Shown: positions 1,444 through 55,671, numbered from the stretch's first letter. The stretch: DNA of 64,000 nt from an uncultured Alphaproteobacteria bacterium (GCA_934255455.1 CAKQNS010000002.1:11007-75006), one strand, 5' to 3'. Numbers and translations are program-made. The notes: generated by a model from the sequence alone, not told the origin.

Positions 1444-1476
1444 GCCATCCGGCTCTGCTGGCGCGCCGCCGCTGTA

Positions 1477-1545
1477 AAAAGTTCAGAGTTCAAAGTGCAA
1501 AGTTCAAAGGATGTGTCCACCATCGGTGGACAGCATTAATAACCT
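1477..1545. repeat. Partial copy of the AAAGTTCAAA-rich palindromic repeat element (left arm plus divergent central hairpin tgtccaccatcggtggaca)
   Basis: aaaagttcagagttcaaagtgcaaagttcaaag matches the left arm of the ~98-bp elements at 8343 and 11341. The right arm is absent. Confidence 0.6.
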
Positions 1546-1741
1546 GGATCCCGGGGACACCCCGCCATGGCGGGCACCCCGGCTTCCCAGAGGGGAATTT
1601 AACTGTGTGGCTGGTACAGAGTGAATTCCCCTTCGCTGGCGAAGGGGTGGACGCGCAGCGGACGGGGCAGTGGTAAATATGTCCCCGCAACGGAAATGAA
1701 AAAGCGCGCCGTCGGCGCACTATCTATTATCTATGCTCTAA

Positions 1742-1768
1742 AAATGCGCCGATGGCGCATTTTTTATT
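1742..1768 (-). terminator. Intrinsic terminator (hairpin gcgccgatggcgc plus T-run) at the 3' end of family gene g1; part of the CTCTAAAAA-hairpin module
   Basis: GC hairpin flanked by an A-run and T-run immediately after stop codon 1764-1766 on the minus strand. Confidence 0.6.
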
Positions 1769-2195
1769 CTATCCAAATCGCGGCGTATGTGGTGGCATTT
1801 TGCCCACCAACCGGAATTTTTACATTACCCTTGGTCACGGTGACTTTACCATCGGTCTGGGATACATCGGTCACCACCGCACCCGTACCCGACGATGTGG
1901 AATCCAGCCCACTGATTGCTTCGGTCACGGCCTTTTGCGTCATTGCACCATCAGTGTTTGTACCTGTGGATGTATACAATTTGGTCACACCGGCCGTGGT
2001 ACCCGTACCCGTTGAATATGTCGTATCGGTTGCAGAAATAACAATTTTACCGGCATTCGCACCATTGGTTGGGGTTGAAACCGTGACATTATCCCCCGAA
2101 ACAATATTGGTTTTCGCCACAATATCCGCAAACGCCCCCGACCCCATAAACACGGCAACAAACAAACCGATAAAAATACCCCTAATAATTATCAT
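1764..2195 (-). CDS. Secreted Thr/Gly-rich protein, short member (g1) of the five-gene tandem family
   Basis: Signal peptide MIIIRGIFIGLFVAVFMGSGAFA. C-terminus …NATTYAAIWIE shares the Trp-containing C-terminal motif of the downstream paralogs. The ORF track starts at TTG 2210; an internal ATG at 2195 is the likely start. Confidence 0.5.
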   Translation of the reverse strand: MIIIRGIFIGLFVAVFMGSGAFADIVAKTNIVSGDNVTVSTPTNGANAGKIVISATDTTYSTGTGTTAGVTKLYTSTGTNTDGAMTQKAVTEAISGLDSTSSGTGAVVTDVSQTDGKVTVTKGNVKIPVGGQNATTYAAIWIE

Positions 2196-2282
2196 AGCCC
2201 TTGCATTCAAATATACACAATATTACCAAGACACATTCATAGTATGGCACCGCTGTCACGGCACCATACTATGCACGTTATA

Positions 2283-3341
2283 TTAACGACCGATATATTC
2301 CCAAACCAATGTTTGGGCACCACCCTCGGCAACTTTCAAGGTCAACGCATAATTACCAACCTTGGATAAATCATCGGTATTTTGTGCCAACTGTGTTGCC
2401 GAGATTTTACCCGCCGTGATAGCACTGTCGGCAATCTTTGCTGATGTGACATTTGCATCCGTAATCTTTGCGGTCGTCACGGCACTATCTGCCAATTTTT
2501 CAGTCGTGACATTTTTATCTGCAATCTTTGCGGTTGTGACATTTGCATCTGTAATCTTTGCTGTTGTCACGGCATTATCTGCCAGTTTTTCTGTTGTGAC
2601 ATTTTTATCTGCAATCTTTGCGGTCGTCACAGCATCGGCAGCCAATTTTGCAGCTGTCACATTTGCGTCTTTGATTTTTACTGTCGTCACAGCATCGGCA
2701 GCCAATTTTGCAGCTGTCACATTTGCGTCTTTGATTTTTACTGTTGTCACGGCATTATCTTCGATCATATCTGTTTTGATTTGACCAGTTATGATTTGAC
2801 CAGTGGCATTTGTGATAACGGCCAGGTTTTTATTTGCCTCCGTTTGGTTCTTATCAACCTTGCCATCAATCGAGTCTGCCAAATCTTTATTAACCGCATC
2901 AGCCGCATTTTTCGCAATTTCTTCGGCGACGGCAACGGTCGGGAACTTTACAGCCTTGTCGGTTGCATCTTTATTGTATGTTGTTTCTTTATTCGCAGAA
3001 TCTTCTTTGTCTTTTTTCAAACCATCAATTGCAGTTTTGTTTTCACCAATTGATGTTGTATGACCAGCAATTGCGTTTTTATTTGCTTCGATATCCTCTT
3101 TGATTGTTTTATCATCGTACGCAGTGCCCGTACCATCGATTGTGATTTTGCCATCAACAATTGTCACATCGATACCATTTGAACCGGCAAGATTTGCATC
3201 CGCCCCCCCAACTTTCAATGTGTCTTGTTTTGCCTTCAAACTCTCATCAACATACGTTGTTGCGGCGATATCTGCGCGGGCGGCACCGGCCGTCATAATT
3301 GCAATCATTGAAACTGCAAATATTCCCGATAATTTTTTCAT
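2283..3341 (-). CDS. Secreted repeat protein g2 of the tandem family (about 12 decapeptide repeats D-x-N/A-V-T-T-x-K-I/L-A)
   Basis: Start MKKLSGIF… at ATG 3341 with RBS AAGGAAAG. The first ~110 residues after the signal (…YVDESLKAKQDTLKVGGADANLAGSNGIDV…VKFPTVAVAEEIAKNAADAV) are nearly identical to g3. A 30-bp tandem repeat array encodes NAVTTVKIKDANVTAAKLAAD-type units. C-terminus GNYALTLKVAEGGAQTLVWEYIGR. Confidence 0.75.
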   Translation of the reverse strand: MKKLSGIFAVSMIAIMTAGAARADIAATTYVDESLKAKQDTLKVGGADANLAGSNGIDVTIVDGKITIDGTGTAYDDKTIKEDIEANKNAIAGHTTSIGENKTAIDGLKKDKEDSANKETTYNKDATDKAVKFPTVAVAEEIAKNAADAVNKDLADSIDGKVDKNQTEANKNLAVITNATGQIITGQIKTDMIEDNAVTTVKIKDANVTAAKLAADAVTTVKIKDANVTAAKLAADAVTTAKIADKNVTTEKLADNAVTTAKITDANVTTAKIADKNVTTEKLADSAVTTAKITDANVTSAKIADSAITAGKISATQLAQNTDDLSKVGNYALTLKVAEGGAQTLVWEYIGR

Positions 3342-3418
3342 TTTTCTTTCCTTTGCTTTCATTTATCAAAATTTATGCCATGGCACGCCAAACACGTACC
3401 ACGGCACTCGGTTATTTA

Positions 3419-4279
3419 TTATTCACCTGTAGCCGGGTTTTCATTCTCGGCGCGTTCAATAACTTCCCATGCGTATGCGGCGTTGTTATATGTCAAAACA
3501 CACTTGTTTGTCGGATTCTCACATTCGCCTGCTGGCTTTGGAATCGCTTCGTTAGCGGTTTTTTGTGCGGCATCCGCAGCGGACTTTGCTGTGGCGGCAT
3601 CCTCTACCCCCTTGTCTGCCTGGGTCTTGGCCTCTGTAATTTTTCCATCCAACGCAGTGTCGGCCGCAGTGTACGCATTTGTAATCGTGGTTGTTGCCGC
3701 GTCAATTTTATAATCAACCGAGCCCTCGGTGGTTTTATCGGCGTTCAATTTTGTAATTGCACTTGTATTTGTGCCAATGTTTGTTTCATTGGTGGAAACG
3801 CGCCCTTCCAATGTCGTTAAATCGGTTGAAACCGCATCAGCCGCATTTTTCGCAATTTCTTCGGCAACAGCAACGGTCGGGAACTTTACACCCTTGTCGG
3901 TTGCATCTTTATTGTATGTTGTTTCTTTATTCGCAGAATCTTCTTTGTCTTTTTTCAAACCATCAATTGCAGTTTTGTTTTCACCAATTGACGTTGTATG
4001 ACCAGCAATTGCGTTTTTATTTGCTTCGATATCCGCCTTGATTGTTTTATCATCGTACGCAGTGCCCGTACCATCGATTGTGATTTTGCCATCAACAATT
4101 TTCACATCGATACCATTTGAACCAGCAAGATTTGCATCCGCCCCCTCAACTTTCAATGTGTCTTGCTTTTTGCCGACCTCTTGGTCAACATATCCACGCG
4201 ATGCAACGGCGGCGTCGGCGCTGTTTGCGGCGACAATCCCCAACATTACGGTAAATATACCTGCGGTTAATTTTTTCAT
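3419..4279 (-). CDS. Secreted protein g3 of the tandem family
   Basis: Start MKKLTAGIF… with signal peptide. Same 5' upstream sequence (ttttttcatttttctttcctttc) as g2. Shared N-terminal domain with g2. C-terminus IPKPAGECENPTNKCVLTYNNAAYAWEVIE matches the C-terminal box of g4. Confidence 0.75.
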   Translation of the reverse strand: MKKLTAGIFTVMLGIVAANSADAAVASRGYVDQEVGKKQDTLKVEGADANLAGSNGIDVKIVDGKITIDGTGTAYDDKTIKADIEANKNAIAGHTTSIGENKTAIDGLKKDKEDSANKETTYNKDATDKGVKFPTVAVAEEIAKNAADAVSTDLTTLEGRVSTNETNIGTNTSAITKLNADKTTEGSVDYKIDAATTTITNAYTAADTALDGKITEAKTQADKGVEDAATAKSAADAAQKTANEAIPKPAGECENPTNKCVLTYNNAAYAWEVIERAENENPATGE

Positions 4280-4318: not shown

Positions 4319-5515
4319 TTATTCCAACGGTTCTGTCACATCCATCCAGTATGGGTTGCCATCCTTATCAACCGACAACACGCAACGTCCGGATTCGGCC
4401 GTGCAATTAACGCCTGGTTTCGGTACCGCGTATGCGGTCACGGCCTTGACGGATGTGTATTTGGTTGTGGAATCTTTGTCGGCGGTCGAAATCGCATCAA
4501 CACGGTTGGTGGTCTTTTCAACGCCATTTAATTCCGTCGTGATGTCGTTTTTGGTTGCCAAATCAGAAATTTTTGTTGTGGACATTTCATATTGCCCGGT
4601 TGCATTCACGGTTGCGATGCCGCCCGCGGTTTCGGCGGTCACACCGGTGACCTTGTCTGCCTTGGCCGCGACGGTGGTCGCCACGCCATCAATACGGGTG
4701 CCCAATGCGGTGTCGGCCTCGGTCAATGTGCTGACAGAATCGTCAACCAATGTATTCACCGCCTTGGCCGTTGGATATTGGTCGTCGGTCGAGGCCGCCG
4801 AAATTGTTGTCGTTTTGTTCGATACATCTTCCTTGCCCGCGACAGATGTTTTTAACGATGAAATATCGGTTTTATTCGTGTCAACCTGGGTCGATACGGT
4901 GCTCAACGCGGTTGCCGTGGCCAAATCGGTAATTTTGGTCGAAGAGGCTTCGTATTGGCCGCTTGCGTTCACGGTTGCGATGCCACCGGTGTTCGCCTCG
5001 GTCATACCAGAAACTTTATCAGCCTTGGCCGCCAATGCGTCGCCCATGTCGCCCGCGACAATTTGCGCAACTTTGTCTTCGGTAAATTTAACGATTGCAC
5101 CAACCGATGGATACAGTGTGCCCGACGCCTTGTTCTGGTCGGTAATTTCGGTTGCCTTGTTTGATGTATCTTCTTTGCCGGTCACGGCTTCTTGTAATGC
5201 GGCGACATTTGTTTCGGTCGTGCCAACACGCGTTGTCAAACCGTTCACCGTATTGTTGGTTGTTGTCAATGCCGCATTTGTTGCCAAATCGTCAATCTTG
5301 GTTGTTGAAACCTGGTATTGGCCATTTGCGTCAACCGTTGCGATGTTGCCGGCATTGTCGCCAACATTTGCAACCACGTTCGCCTTGGTGCCCGCCAAAT
5401 TATCAACATAGGCCTGGCTGGCAATTCGTTTTGCCGCCCCATCGGCCGCAGACGCCGCACCAACCGACATGATTGCCGCCATAAATCCAGAAAATGCGAT
5501 ATTATTTATTTTCAT
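4319..5515 (-). CDS. Secreted protein g4 of the tandem family
   Basis: Signal peptide MKINNIAFSGFMAAIMSVGAASA. ASQAYVDNLAGTK N-box. Repeated GIATVNASGQYE(A/M)S(S/T)TKI(T/S)DLAT units. C-terminus YAVPKPGVNCTAESGRCVLSVDKDGNPYWMDVTEP. RBS AAGGAAAAAA. Confidence 0.75.
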   Translation of the reverse strand: MKINNIAFSGFMAAIMSVGAASAADGAAKRIASQAYVDNLAGTKANVVANVGDNAGNIATVDANGQYQVSTTKIDDLATNAALTTTNNTVNGLTTRVGTTETNVAALQEAVTGKEDTSNKATEITDQNKASGTLYPSVGAIVKFTEDKVAQIVAGDMGDALAAKADKVSGMTEANTGGIATVNASGQYEASSTKITDLATATALSTVSTQVDTNKTDISSLKTSVAGKEDVSNKTTTISAASTDDQYPTAKAVNTLVDDSVSTLTEADTALGTRIDGVATTVAAKADKVTGVTAETAGGIATVNATGQYEMSTTKISDLATKNDITTELNGVEKTTNRVDAISTADKDSTTKYTSVKAVTAYAVPKPGVNCTAESGRCVLSVDKDGNPYWMDVTEPLE

Positions 5516-5560: not shown

Positions 5561-6973
5561 CTATGGTTCCACAATTACAATCTCGGACCACGCGCCACCA
5601 CCATTACCATCGGCCGCAAATATATAGTTGCCAGCCGTTTCGGGCGCCGTCATGCCACCAGTTGCCGAAATGGTATCGCCATCAATCGTGATGTTCGTGC
5701 CCGCGGTCAATTTATTTTGCTTGCCCGCCAACGCGGTGTTGATGTCGGTCTTGGTGTAATATTGGTCCGCATCAAATGTACCAGATTGGGTAATTTTCGC
5801 ATCAACCTCGGTCTTGGTATATGCGTCACCAATGCCATATCCCGCCAGGGTTGTTGCCTTGTCCGCCTTGGTCGCGATTGATGCAGTGTTTGCCTCTATC
5901 GCGGCGGTATTTGCATCTATGGCATTTTTATTTGCACTGATGTTTGTGGCATTCGCACCAATCAATGTACGCACCGCCGTGTCGTCATACGATTTCGCCG
6001 AAATGGTATCGCCATCAATCGTGATGTTCGTACCCGCGGTCAATTTATTTTGTTTGTCCGCCAATGCCGTGTTCGTTTCGGTCTTGGTATAATATTGTTC
6101 CGCATCAAATGTACCAGAATCACGGATTTTCGCATCAACTTCGGCCTTGGTATAAACATCCGTCTTGGCCGCATAGATTGCCGACAGTGCACTGATTGCA
6201 TCTGCAATCGCGGTGTTCATTTGCTCTGTTGTGGAATATGCACTTAAATCCGCCGGAGTACCGGGTTCACCCGCCGGCCCCTGGGGCCCAGTGATTTCCG
6301 CCTTGGAAATCAGAATTCGCCAATCAGCATCACCCTCGCCCGCATAGCGCCATAACAGGTCGTTGTCATTTGAACCAATTTCAACCTCGCGCCCATCCTG
6401 GCCGGCGATGCTGCCTATTTCGTCTTTTAACCCATCAACATCAACATAAATTTGATTTGTTGTATTATCAATTACAATAAAACCGTTCAGTGTCGGTTCC
6501 AGCGTATCTTGTTTGTCACCCAATTGGCTTGATAAACTATCGTCCGCTTGGTGCAGTTCCTCGGTATCGCGCTGTAATTGGTCAATTTGACGACGCAAAT
6601 CCGCCACAACCGACGGATCAGTTGTACCACCTTCGCCCGGTTCCGGACGCACAGAACTGCCCCCGCTGACGGATGTGGTGCCCCCCAAATATTTTCCAAT
6701 AGATAAACGCGGTGTTGTTGCCACACGACCCGTTGTTGTTGCGGCCACCGGCTTTGCCGTCGCCGTCGTGCCGGTTTTACCAGCCGTTGGTGTCACACGC
6801 AATGACCCCGCACGCGCCGCACCGGTCGATGTTGCATTTGATGCGGCCGACGCACTGGAGTATGTTCCAGCCCCACCCAGCGAACGCACCGACGATGCCG
6901 CGTCAGCCCCGGAAACCGTGGCGCACACCGCACACACAATCGCAAGTATCGATATTTTGGTGTTATTTTTCAT
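5561..6973 (-). CDS. Secreted protein g5 of the tandem family; collagen-like triplet and phage-tail-fibre-like repeats
   Basis: Signal peptide MKNNTKISILAIVCAVCATVSGADA. KQDTL box as in g2/g3. …WRILISKAEITGPQGPAGEPGTP… Two ~55-aa direct repeats YTK(A/T)EVDAKI…GTFDA(E/D)QYYTKT…LA(D/G)KQNKLTAGTNITIDGDTISA. C-terminus …GGGAWSEIVIVEP. Confidence 0.75.
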   Translation of the reverse strand: MKNNTKISILAIVCAVCATVSGADAASSVRSLGGAGTYSSASAASNATSTGAARAGSLRVTPTAGKTGTTATAKPVAATTTGRVATTPRLSIGKYLGGTTSVSGGSSVRPEPGEGGTTDPSVVADLRRQIDQLQRDTEELHQADDSLSSQLGDKQDTLEPTLNGFIVIDNTTNQIYVDVDGLKDEIGSIAGQDGREVEIGSNDNDLLWRYAGEGDADWRILISKAEITGPQGPAGEPGTPADLSAYSTTEQMNTAIADAISALSAIYAAKTDVYTKAEVDAKIRDSGTFDAEQYYTKTETNTALADKQNKLTAGTNITIDGDTISAKSYDDTAVRTLIGANATNISANKNAIDANTAAIEANTASIATKADKATTLAGYGIGDAYTKTEVDAKITQSGTFDADQYYTKTDINTALAGKQNKLTAGTNITIDGDTISATGGMTAPETAGNYIFAADGNGGGAWSEIVIVEP

Positions 6974-46690: not shown

Positions 46691-46766
46691 TGGTGGCTAG
46701 GAACGGAATCGAACCGCTGACACAGGGATTTTCAGTCCCTTGCTCTACCAACTGAGCTACCTAGCC
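46691..46766 (-). tRNA. tRNA-Phe (anticodon GAA)
   Basis: Reverse complement GGCTAGGTAGCTCAGTTGGTAGAGCAAGGGACTGAAAATCCCTGTGTCAGCGGTTCGATTCCGTTCCTAGCCACCA. Cloverleaf with anticodon loop CTGAAAA. Encoded CCA. Confidence 0.9.
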
Positions 46767-55595: not shown

Positions 55596-55671
55596 TGGTG
55601 GACGCACAGGGACTCGAACCCTGGACCCACTGATTAAGAGTCAGTTGCTCTACCAACTGAGCTATGCATCC
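55596..55671 (-). tRNA. tRNA-Lys (anticodon CUU)
   Basis: Reverse complement GGATGCATAGCTCAGTTGGTAGAGCAACTGACTCTTAATCAGTGGGTCCAGGGTTCGAGTCCCTGTGCGTCCACCA. Anticodon loop CTCTTAA. Encoded CCA. Confidence 0.85.

What the first reader, a model, noticed from the sequence alone, without database searches (positions are those of the whole stretch)
2411..2760. 30-bp tandem repeat array (about 11.5 units, including a perfect 60-bp duplicate) encoding decapeptide repeats inside g2
Coding-strand units translate to D-x-(N/A)-V-T-T-x-K-(I/L)-(A/T/K) repeated about 12 times (NAVTTVKIKDANVTAAKLAADAVTTVKIKDANVTAAKLAAD…). 2631-2690 and 2691-2750 are identical except for one base. In-frame tandem repeats of this type expand and contract by slipped-strand or recombinational events, changing protein length without a frameshift. 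That is common in surface proteins under host or phage selection. The 10-residue periodicity suggests a regular beta-solenoid or fibrous fold.
Basis: seen in the sequence. Interest (0 to 1): 0.6.

Follow-up and report, generated by a model that had tools for sequence, protein, structure and literature searches.

The report
Phage-fibre-type decapeptide repeats, secreted protein
The repeat is real: twelve in-frame copies of a ten-residue motif, the same motif that forms the shafts of many phage tail fibres, sit inside a secreted fibre-like protein of an uncultured human-gut alphaproteobacterium. It is an ordinary member of a very large repeat family, and its copy number differs between related species.

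Summary
Window 2400-2759 (minus strand) holds 12 in-frame 30-nt units, consensus D-x-(A/N)-V-T-T-x-K-(I/L)-x, inside gene 2283-3341 (352 aa). Segments 2631-2690 and 2691-2750 differ by one synonymous base.

The protein has a Sec-type signal peptide, IxxNxxx heptads and the repeat array. It is the fourth of five tandem secreted, internally repetitive genes lying between tol-pal and rbfA-lepA in a gut alphaproteobacterial MAG lineage.

The motif is the Decapeptide repeat type (Pfam PF25296, matched below its threshold). It matches a PHROG tail-fibre family at E=1.7e-37. It occurs in tail-fibre genes of 132 cultured phage records and in about 28,000 protein clusters.

The AF2 monomer model of the array is confident (pLDDT above 90) but extended. 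It matches no solved beta-solenoid.

The syntenic gene in related genomes has 4 units, 7+6 units, or none, so copy number does change over evolutionary time. A 10-unit allele that lacks exactly one 60-nt double unit appears in 8 public contigs. It tracks the assembler almost perfectly (all MEGAHIT contigs are short), on backgrounds that are otherwise identical. Within-species polymorphism is therefore unproven.

Verdict: a real, ordinary structural repeat and a new member of a known kind.

The parts
2283..3341 (-). Gene for the 352-aa secreted repeat protein (stop codon included). An alternative upstream ATG at 3362 would give 359 aa.
   Evidence: ORF list. Public orthologous gene calls start at this ATG. 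An AAGGA motif lies 8-12 nt upstream.
3273..3341 (-). Sec-type signal peptide MKKLSGIFAVSMIAIMTAGAARA, with an A-x-A cleavage motif and no lipobox cysteine.
   Evidence: Read directly from the translation. The same N-terminus is conserved in the syntenic genes of L002, L014 and L015. No signal-peptide predictor was available.
2892..3236 (-). N-terminal half shared at 96-98% DNA identity with the neighbouring paralogue (3830-4174). It is a tract of likely gene conversion.
   Evidence: blastn and the repeat finder. Variant residues in the L001 allele match the paralogue.
3009..3092 (-). Four IxxNxxx-type heptads (IEANKNA IAGHTTS IGENKTA IDGLKKD) within a predicted long helix. Inferred to be a trimeric coiled coil.
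   Evidence: Sequence read in register. AF2 helix 77-115. The link between N-at-d heptads and trimers rests on my own knowledge of trimeric autotransporter stalks.
2760..2828 (-). Conserved leader before the array (NLAVITNATGQIITGQIKTDMIE). It includes a 15-nt tandem duplicate at 2773-2804.
   Evidence: TRF row 2773-2804. The motif is conserved in P0045 and P0112 just before their arrays.
2400..2759 (-). Array of 12 decapeptide units (aa 195-314), 30 nt each.
   Evidence: AF2 pLDDT is 83-94 over this stretch.
2691..2750 (-). First copy (in coding order) of the near-perfect 60-nt double unit.
   Evidence: 59/60 identity to 2631-2690.
2631..2690 (-). Second copy of the 60-nt double unit. One copy is absent from the 332-aa allele.
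2520..2609 (-). Units 6-8, the older 90-nt triple unit, copy 1.
   Evidence: 27, 26 and 27 of 30 identical to units 9-11. TRF period 90, 90% matches.
2430..2519 (-). Units 9-11, the 90-nt triple unit, copy 2.
2286..2399 (-). C-terminal tail ending ...GNYALTLKVAEGGAQTLVWEYIGR. A short hairpin-like motif with an invariant Trp is shared by all five cluster proteins.
   Evidence: Alignment A4. AF2 predicts two short strands here at low confidence.
2238..2273 (-). 16-bp stem-loop directly after the stop codon, terminator-like.
1764..2210 (-). Cluster gene 5: secreted 148-aa (143 aa as called on the public contigs) protein with a phage tail-fibre-repeat-like motif.
   Evidence: Pfam Phage_fiber_2 at E=0.001, below the cut-off. 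Synteny.
3419..4279 (-). Cluster gene 3: 286-aa secreted paralogue that shares the N-terminal half.
4319..5515 (-). Cluster gene 2: 398-aa secreted protein with 3 x 363-nt internal repeats.
5561..6973 (-). Cluster gene 1: 470-aa secreted protein with IxxNxxx heptads, a short collagen-like stretch and 2 x 333-nt repeats.

Best explanation
The array encodes the shaft of a Sec-exported fibre protein, probably trimeric, of a gut alphaproteobacterium. The shaft is built from the same decapeptide module, D-x-(A/N)-V-T-T-x-K-(I/L)-x, that forms the proximal rod of many phage tail fibres.

Strong purifying selection keeps V4, T5, K8 and I/L9 constant while the DNA of neighbouring units has drifted to about 59% identity. 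The array grew by segmental duplications of two units (60 nt, recent, 59/60 identical) and three units (90 nt, older, 89% identical).

Unequal recombination or replication slippage between such higher-order copies adds or removes whole units without a frameshift, and so changes fibre length. This has happened between related species. Whether it is happening now within this species is unresolved.

Shown here: the array, its layered DNA structure, the signal-peptide-like N-terminus, homology of the repeat to phage fibre shafts, and different unit numbers in syntenic orthologues.

Inferred: trimeric state, surface location, that length is the selected trait, and the mutational mechanism.
For: - Array and statistics.
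- Signal peptide and conserved five-gene secreted cluster between tolB-pal-OMP and DedA-rbfA-lepA, in several species.
- Repeat homology to phage fibres: PHROG tail-fibre family phrog_28766 at E=1.7e-37 plus six further families annotated tail fibre or tail protein. Homologues carry Phage_T7_tail, Gp53-like_C, Peptidase_S74, Mtd_N and BppL_N domains. 132 phage records carry the repeat, with tail-fibre genes under the best-listed matches. BFVD models of T7-like and crAss-like tail fibres are the top structural matches. In phage S-TIP37 the array directly follows the T7-type N-terminal attachment domain.
- Trimer hint: IxxNxxx heptads and long predicted helices.
- Unit number at the same gene position: 12 in the window, 4 in L014/P0045 (flanks 90-97% identical), 7+6 in L015/P0112, and none in L002, where a duplicated module of about 92 aa replaces it. 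The signal peptide is conserved in all. The C-terminal tail is conserved in L014 and, more loosely, in L015; L002 instead ends in the cysteine-containing C-terminus type of the neighbouring paralogues.
- Neighbouring genes also differ by whole repeat units: 21 aa = 3 heptads, and a 39-aa module.
Against: - No experiment or predictor confirms export, surface exposure or trimerisation.
- The cluster contains no recognisable secretion or anchoring machinery.
- AF2 was run as a monomer only, so the real quaternary fold of the repeat is unknown. No solved structure matched it.
- The only within-species length variant is confounded with the assembly software.
- Most of the array is too diverged in DNA to slip often.
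Confidence: 0.6

Rival explanations
1. The array is stable at 12 units in this species. The 10-unit allele is an assembly artefact: a collapse of the near-perfect 60-nt tandem duplicate. On this view the repeat is simply a fixed structural element with no present-day length variation.
For: - All four MEGAHIT (k141_) contigs examined carry the short allele, on three different flank haplotypes. All SPAdes-style NODE/scaffold contigs carry the long allele except L005, which comes from a fragmented 28.6-kb scaffold.
- L007 (short) and L010 (long) are identical over 13,059 bp apart from the 60-nt gap. L008 (short) and the window are identical over 6,709 bp apart from the gap.
- The short allele has no unique junction sequence, so a collapsed graph path would produce exactly this sequence.
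Against: - L005 comes from the same pipeline (MERR22-1 scaffolds) that resolved the long allele in L001, L011 and L018.
- The 120-nt duplicate is shorter than the k=141 implied by the contig names.
- Three of the eight short-allele contigs were not shown, so their assembler is unknown.
- A near-perfect tandem duplicate is in principle an unstable substrate.
Confidence: 0.5
2. The repeat is a pentapeptide-repeat (Rfr-type) right-handed quadrilateral beta-helix, with two pentapeptides per decapeptide and 20 aa per coil. On this view the 60-nt duplicate adds exactly one coil to a monomeric solenoid.
For: - Both half-units fit the pattern small-x-(V/I/L)-x-x.
- Units alternate between AV and NV types, giving a 20-aa super-period. 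DNA identity at lag 2 is 74%, against 59% at lag 1.
- Weak sequence matches to pentapeptide proteins: DotG/IcmE at 2.4e-6, designed beta-solenoids at 3e-4 to 5e-3, PipB2 at 2e-4, Pfam Pentapeptide_4 at 0.19. Some homologues carry PF13599.
Against: - All these matches are far below the curated cut-offs.
- The 20-aa super-period is not kept in homologues (10-aa or 50-aa periods).
- Partner domains in homologues are those of trimeric phage fibres.
Confidence: 0.15
3. The gene is a remnant phage, tailocin or gene-transfer-agent tail-fibre gene rather than a cellular envelope protein.
For: The repeat and several motifs in the cluster (Phage_fiber_2-like motifs, and NADW...NKP in the L002 orthologue) are typical of phage fibres.
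Against: - All five genes begin with Sec-type signal peptides, which virion fibres lack.
- Within the roughly 10 kb on either side that was examined, the called genes carry only housekeeping or no Pfam domains; the one phage-associated hit is a weak Arm-DNA-bind_3 (integrase-type DNA-binding) domain on a 333-aa gene about 5 kb beyond lepA.
- The cluster sits at the same chromosomal position, between pal/OMP and DedA-rbfA-lepA, in genomes whose flanks are only about 78% identical.
Confidence: 0.05
4. The proteins are periplasmic coiled-coil or fibre spacers associated with the Tol-Pal / outer-membrane system, not surface fibres.
For: - They have a Sec signal peptide but no outer-membrane translocation domain.
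- They lie next to pal, tolB and a small OMP barrel gene.
- The paralogue p286 has a weak Alanine_zipper (Lpp-like) match at E=0.001.
Against: - Orthologues differ widely in length and module content (235 to 541 aa at one position). That is hard to reconcile with a spacer of fixed span.
- The Pfam match is below its cut-off.
Confidence: 0.1

Closest known systems
Pfam PF25296 'Decapeptide repeat region', and the decapeptide shafts of phage tail fibres (for example the T7-like cyanophage S-TIP37 tail fiber-like protein AXF42099.1, and S-CBP3, S-CBP4 and P-SSP2/3/10 tail fibres)
   Same: It has the same 10-residue motif (x-A/N-V-T-T-x-K-I/L-A-D) in long uninterrupted arrays. Identity to phage arrays is 45-57% over more than 120 aa. 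It matches PHROG tail-fibre families and shows the same extended predicted conformation as BFVD fibre models.
   Different: Here the array sits in a chromosomal gene with a signal peptide and no virion-attachment domain such as Phage_T7_tail. The Pfam model itself is matched only below threshold: 20.8-23.2 bits against a cut-off of 45.
Pentapeptide repeat proteins (Pfam PF00805/PF13599; Rfr fold, for example MfpA, HetL, PipB2, the DotG repeats)
   Same: Each decapeptide reads as two pentapeptides with a central aliphatic residue. There are weak sequence matches.
   Different: All scores are far below the cut-offs. The confident AF2 model is not a quadrilateral beta-helix and matches none of the solved ones. 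The period is 10 aa, not 5.
Trimeric autotransporter adhesin stalks (YadA_stalk, N-at-d coiled coils)
   Same: IxxNxxx heptads, a modular fibre architecture, and indels of whole repeat units. One repeat-bearing homologue has a YadA_stalk domain.
   Different: No C-terminal membrane-anchor barrel and no YadA head or stalk Pfam match in this protein.
Repeat-length-polymorphic surface fibres such as Bacillus BclA and streptococcal Scl collagen-like proteins (from my own knowledge)
   Same: In-frame repeats form a trimeric filament whose length follows the repeat number. A collagen-like stretch is present in cluster gene 1, and there is a Pfam Collagen hit in the L015 orthologue.
   Different: The repeat chemistry differs (decapeptide, not G-X-Y). 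Polymorphism within the species is not demonstrated here.
Legionella phage LME-1 orf16 (PDB 9EG4 chain H)
   Same: It is the only solved-structure entry whose sequence carries the same repeat (NIQDGAVTANKLATDSVTTVKILDDNVTSDKIA), at E=2.2e-5. 9EG4 is one of the two coordinate entries for the LME-1 capsid and portal-tail complex. In the order listed it pairs with the capsid map, whose only non-capsid component is a head decoration protein with a trimeric base (PMC12407071). If that assignment is right, this is a trimeric virion protein carrying the repeat.
   Different: It is a virion protein. The paper states that the distal parts of both the head decoration protein and the tail fibres were not modelled, and my model found no Foldseek match to any PDB chain. 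The repeat conformation is therefore probably not resolved there.

Membership tests
Pfam PF25296 Decapeptide repeat region | Whole-protein score at or above the curated gathering cut-off (45 bits) | tested here: not met
   20.8 bits for the full protein and 23.2 bits for the repeat fragment. Only 11 of 62 repeat-bearing homologues reach E<=0.001. The resemblance is real, but formal membership by Pfam's criterion fails.
Pfam PF25296 Decapeptide repeat region | Uninterrupted array with a 10-residue period | tested here: met
   12 contiguous units without indels.
Phage tail-fibre shaft repeat (PHROG phrog_28766, phrog_892 and others) | Significant profile match to tail-fibre families over the repeat | tested here: met
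   phrog_28766 at E=1.7e-37 (130 bits), phrog_892 at 3e-22, phrog_21412 at 3.8e-16. tblastn against phage records places the best-listed matches in tail-fibre genes.
Phage tail-fibre protein (a virion component) | Virion-attachment or receptor-binding domain, a phage genomic context, and no signal peptide | tested here: not met
   No Phage_T7_tail or other virion domain. The chromosomal context is conserved across species. The N-terminus is signal-peptide-like.
Pentapeptide repeat family (PF00805/PF13599; NCBIfam HetL, PipB2) | Score above the curated cut-off | tested here: not met
   Pentapeptide_4: 12.3 bits against 38. PipB2: 20.2 against 354. HetL: 14.6 against 260.
Pentapeptide repeat family | Right-handed quadrilateral beta-helix fold | tested here: not met
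Trimeric autotransporter adhesin | C-terminal YadA-type membrane-anchor barrel | tested here: not met
   No such Pfam match at E<=1. The C-terminus is a 38-aa tail.
Variable-number tandem repeat / contingency locus | Repeat number varies among isolates of one species, or within a population | tested here: inconclusive
   12-unit alleles occur on 14 contigs and 10-unit alleles on 8. The split follows the assembler, and the backgrounds are otherwise identical.
Variable-number tandem repeat / contingency locus | Highly similar DNA units that allow frequent slippage | tested here: inconclusive
   Only one 60-nt pair is near-perfect (59/60). Adjacent 30-nt units are about 59% identical.
T4 fibritin foldon-like C-terminal trimerisation hairpin | Detectable sequence or profile similarity to the foldon | tested here: not met
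   hhalign probability is 0.3%. A PDB profile search found no foldon-bearing chain.

The most novel reading that the evidence does not exclude
The five-gene cluster may encode Sec-exported trimeric surface fibres that a gut alphaproteobacterium has assembled from phage tail-fibre modules. The 60-nt double unit would then be a fast on-the-spot length switch. Both alleles occur on three flank haplotypes and, in the pairs compared, differ by 0-6 bases besides the indel, which would mean the indel arises faster than point mutations. On this reading the locus is a contingency locus that tunes fibre length against phage or host immunity, or a decoy for phages that use the same module.
Probability: 0.12. 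Interest if true: 0.55.

Novelty: new member of a known kind. Interest (0 to 1): 0.25.

Why it matters
The finding mainly clarifies an annotation. A hypothetical protein of an uncultured human-gut alphaproteobacterium can now be described as a secreted fibre whose shaft uses the widespread phage tail-fibre decapeptide module.

Two modest points go beyond that:
- The module, common in virion fibres, is here used in a conserved chromosomal cluster of signal-peptide proteins. That cluster varies by whole modules between close species, so it is a likely target of diversifying selection at the cell surface.
- The three-dimensional structure of this very common repeat (about 28,000 protein clusters) appears not to be solved. 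A short, well-behaved 12-unit example could be a convenient target.

The case also gives a practical warning: near-perfect 60-nt tandem duplicates can appear as length 'alleles' that merely track the assembler.

Tried and rejected
- Foldon idea: the shared C-terminal motif (Y/C-x-L...G...W-x-x-I) reminded me of the T4 fibritin foldon. Profile comparison and a PDB profile search gave nothing, so I dropped it as unsupported.
- Exact look-up of the 359-aa reading found nothing, because the public gene calls use the 352-aa start.
- A scan of JGI metagenome contigs for an exact 29-mer next to the array found no match, so it gave no extra alleles.
- Literature searches for 'decapeptide repeat' with 'tail fiber' or 'phage', and for 'pentapeptide repeat' + 'tail fiber' + 'beta-helix', found nothing relevant. 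The supplements of the LME-1 paper are not held.
- NCBIfam and Pfam gave no family above cut-off for any of the five cluster proteins.
- No further paralogues of the cluster exist elsewhere in the 64-kb window.
- No viral contig or phage record carries a near-identical array; the best matches are 55-77% identical over short segments. There is therefore no sign of recent phage-host transfer.
- The antisense ORF 2362-2784 (140 aa) is a by-product of the repeat, not a gene.

Full report
**1. The observation**

The region lies in a minus-strand gene, 2283-3341 (352 aa). An upstream in-frame ATG at 3362 would give 359 aa. The public gene calls and an AAGGA motif favour 3341.

Translating in 10-codon steps shows 12 contiguous decapeptides at aa 195-314 (window 2400-2759). 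The consensus is D-x-(A/N)-V-T-T-x-K-(I/L)-x. T5 and K8 are invariant, V4 is present in 11 of 12 units, and position 9 is always I or L. Segments 2631-2690 and 2691-2750 differ by one base, a synonymous Thr codon change.

TRF finds periods of 30, 60 and 90 nt. Lag-30 identity is 0.588 against 0.273 +/- 0.024 in shuffles.

At the DNA level the array is layered:
- Adjacent units are only about 59% identical.
- Units 1-2 and 3-4 form a recent 60-nt duplicate (59/60).
- Units 6-8 and 9-11 form an older 90-nt duplicate (80/90).

**2. The protein and its setting**

Reading from the N-terminus, the protein has these parts:
- A Sec-type signal peptide, MKKLSGIFAVSMIAIMTAGAARA (read from the sequence; no predictor was available).
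- A 115-aa stretch that is 96-98% identical in DNA to the neighbouring 286-aa paralogue.
- Four IxxNxxx heptads inside long predicted helices.
- A conserved leader, ...AVITNATGQIITGQIKTDMIE.
- The 12-unit array.
- A 38-aa tail ending in LVWEYIGR.

It is the fourth of five tandem minus-strand genes (5561-6973, 4319-5515, 3419-4279, 2283-3341, 1764-2210). All five have signal peptides, internal repeats and a short C-terminal motif with an invariant Trp.

The cluster lies between tolB / pal / a small OMP barrel gene and DedA / rbfA / lepA. The same arrangement is found in several related metagenome-assembled genomes from human-gut samples. One of them is titled 'uncultured Alphaproteobacteria bacterium'. 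No Pfam or NCBIfam family passes its cut-off for any of the five proteins.

**3. What the repeat is**

Pfam has a 'Decapeptide repeat region' model (PF25296). The protein matches it only below threshold, at 20.8-23.2 bits against a cut-off of 45.

The match to phage families is strong. PHROG tail-fibre family phrog_28766 scores E=1.7e-37, and six other families annotated tail fibre or tail protein also match.

The repeat is very widespread:
- More than 3,800 proteins share it in the word-indexed search.
- An exhaustive HMMER scan of 1.84 billion representatives finds 27,951 clusters at E<=0.001 and 9,591 at E<=1e-10. Some are giant proteins with more than 20 matched stretches.

Homologues combine the array with typical phage receptor-binding-protein domains: Phage_T7_tail, Gp53-like_C, Peptidase_S74, Mtd_N, BppL_N and H_lectin.

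Among cultured phages, 132 records carry the repeat. The best-listed matches lie in genes annotated tail fiber or host specificity protein J, or in unannotated genes; the records come from T7-like cyanophages, Mycobacterium, Gordonia and Lactobacillus phages, and a Paracoccus phage. In S-TIP37 the array (some 30 units) follows directly after the T7-type N-terminal attachment domain, where T7 gp17 has its trimeric rod (the T7 comparison is from my own knowledge). IMG/VR holds at least 127 further examples.

The only PDB sequence with the same repeat is orf16 of Legionella phage LME-1 (9EG4 chain H). 9EG4 appears to be the capsid entry, which would make orf16 the head decoration protein with its trimeric base. 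The paper says the distal parts of that protein and of the tail fibres were not modelled (PMC12407071).

**4. Fold**

AF2 was run as a monomer, once with an 82-row alignment and once with a 62-row alignment. Both runs give pLDDT 83-94 across the array. The array shows a three-residue turn every five residues and no strands or bridges.

The fibrous reading is therefore supported. The beta-solenoid reading is not. The weak sequence similarity to pentapeptide-repeat proteins (DotG, designed solenoids, PipB2, HetL) and the AV/NV alternation with a 20-aa super-period keep an Rfr-type helix alive as a minor rival. The true quaternary structure could not be tested.

**5. Does the copy number vary?**

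*Between species: yes.* The gene at the same position has the same signal peptide. The C-terminal tail is kept in L014 and, loosely, in L015; the L002 gene ends in a different, cysteine-containing C-terminus like those of the neighbouring paralogues. The array differs as follows:

| Genome | Flank identity to window | Array at this gene position |
|---|---|---|
| Window | - | 12 units |
| L014 / P0045 | 90-97% | 4 units |
| L015 / P0112 | about 78% | two blocks of 7 and 6 units |
| L002 | 87-93% | none; a duplicated module of about 92 aa instead |

Neighbouring genes also differ by whole units: 21 aa (three heptads), a 39-aa module and a 62-aa module.

*Within the species: unresolved.* The 90%-identity cluster of this protein holds 352-aa forms on 14 contigs and a 332-aa form (P0122) on 8 contigs. 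The 332-aa form lacks exactly one 60-nt double unit.

The split follows the assembler:
- All four MEGAHIT contigs examined (names k141_...) are short.
- All SPAdes-style contigs are long except L005.
- Both alleles occur on each of three flank haplotypes.
- L007 and L010 are identical over 13,059 bp apart from the gap. L008 and the window are identical over 6,709 bp apart from the gap.

This is what an assembler collapse of a near-perfect tandem duplicate would produce. It is also what a very fast recurrent indel would produce. I cannot separate the two without reads. I put a real polymorphism at roughly even odds or slightly below.

**6. Mechanism proposed**

The array is the shaft of a secreted, probably trimeric fibre. 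The decapeptide motif is held by structural selection while the DNA drifts. The array grows and shrinks by unequal recombination or slippage between higher-order duplicates of 60 and 90 nt, always in frame, and this changes fibre length.

The locus as a whole is recombinationally active:
- There is gene conversion between the two paralogues. The L001 allele carries paralogue-type residues.
- A possible fusion allele exists (P0124/L013).
- Whole modules are replaced between species.

Export, trimerisation, surface location and the selective agent are inferences.

**7. Comparison with known systems, and novelty**

In function it resembles phage tail-fibre shafts and repeat-length-variable bacterial surface fibres such as BclA, Scl and TAA stalks. 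In family terms it carries the decapeptide repeat of the PF25296 / phage-fibre type but fails Pfam's cut-off. It is not a virion fibre, not a pentapeptide-repeat protein by any curated criterion, and not a TAA.

The repeat family is very large and already catalogued. In-frame repeat variation in surface fibres is a well-known theme. I rate the finding a new member of a known kind, with interest about 0.25.

The more novel possibility is a fast length switch in a phage-module-derived surface fibre cluster. It is not excluded, but the evidence for it is weakened by the assembler confound.

Noticed in passing
window 2892-3236 versus 3830-4174; L001 10001-11059; L013 276-1334: The N-terminal halves of the repeat gene and the neighbouring 286-aa paralogue are 96-98% identical in DNA, while their signal peptides and C-terminal halves differ. 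The L001 allele of the repeat gene carries paralogue-type residues (KADIE, DKGVKF), which suggests gene conversion. One 2.8-kb MAG contig (P0124/L013) encodes a fusion with the paralogue's signal peptide. That fusion could be a real deletion or an assembly chimera.
   Followed up: partly
window 5561-6973 (and L001 6306-7781, L014 2986-4659): Cluster gene 1 exists as 470-aa and 491-aa haplotypes that differ by 21 aa, exactly three IxxNxxx heptads. L014 has an extra 62-aa module. The protein also has a short collagen-like stretch (GPQGPAGEPGTP), and the L015 orthologue has a Pfam Collagen hit.
   Followed up: partly
window 4319-5515 (and L002 4636-5961): Cluster gene 2 has three 363-nt internal repeats. 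The L002 orthologue has an additional 39-aa module containing the QYP(T/S)AKAV motif, which is typical of phage tail-fibre repeats.
   Followed up: partly
L002 6927-7856: In a related genome the gene at the position of the repeat gene keeps the signal peptide but ends in the cysteine-containing C-terminus type seen in the neighbouring paralogues. The whole middle is replaced by two copies of a module of about 92 aa carrying the phage-like motif NADWNSTEGVSQILNKP. This is whole-module replacement at one locus.
   Followed up: partly
window 2286-2399, and the C-termini of 1764-2210, 3419-4279, 4319-5515 and 5561-6973: All five cluster proteins end in a short motif, (Y/C)-x-(L/F)...G...W-x-x-(I/V), often preceded by P-x-P and, in two of them, a Cys pair. 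No known family matched, and the resemblance to the fibritin foldon was not supported. It may be a shared trimerisation or anchoring element.
   Followed up: partly
window 1444-1763: This GC-rich intergenic stretch has AAAGTTC heptamer repeats (1478-1509) and several palindromes or hairpins (1703-1764). It is partly shared with an extra segment in L014 (8546-9022). It could be a REP- or MITE-like element. There was no Rfam match.
   Followed up: no
window 3375-3407 and 2238-2273 (minus strand): Long stem-loops of 14 and 16 pairs lie directly after the stop codons of the 286-aa paralogue and the repeat gene. They suggest separate termination or mRNA-stabilising hairpins for each gene of the cluster.
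   Followed up: no
window 2362-2784 (plus strand): A 140-aa antisense ORF runs through the array and itself reads as a repeat (AVVTALSA...). It is almost certainly a by-product of the repeat and not a gene.
   Followed up: no
window 46694-46766 and 55599-55671 (minus strand): Two tRNA genes are the only Rfam matches in the window.
   Followed up: no
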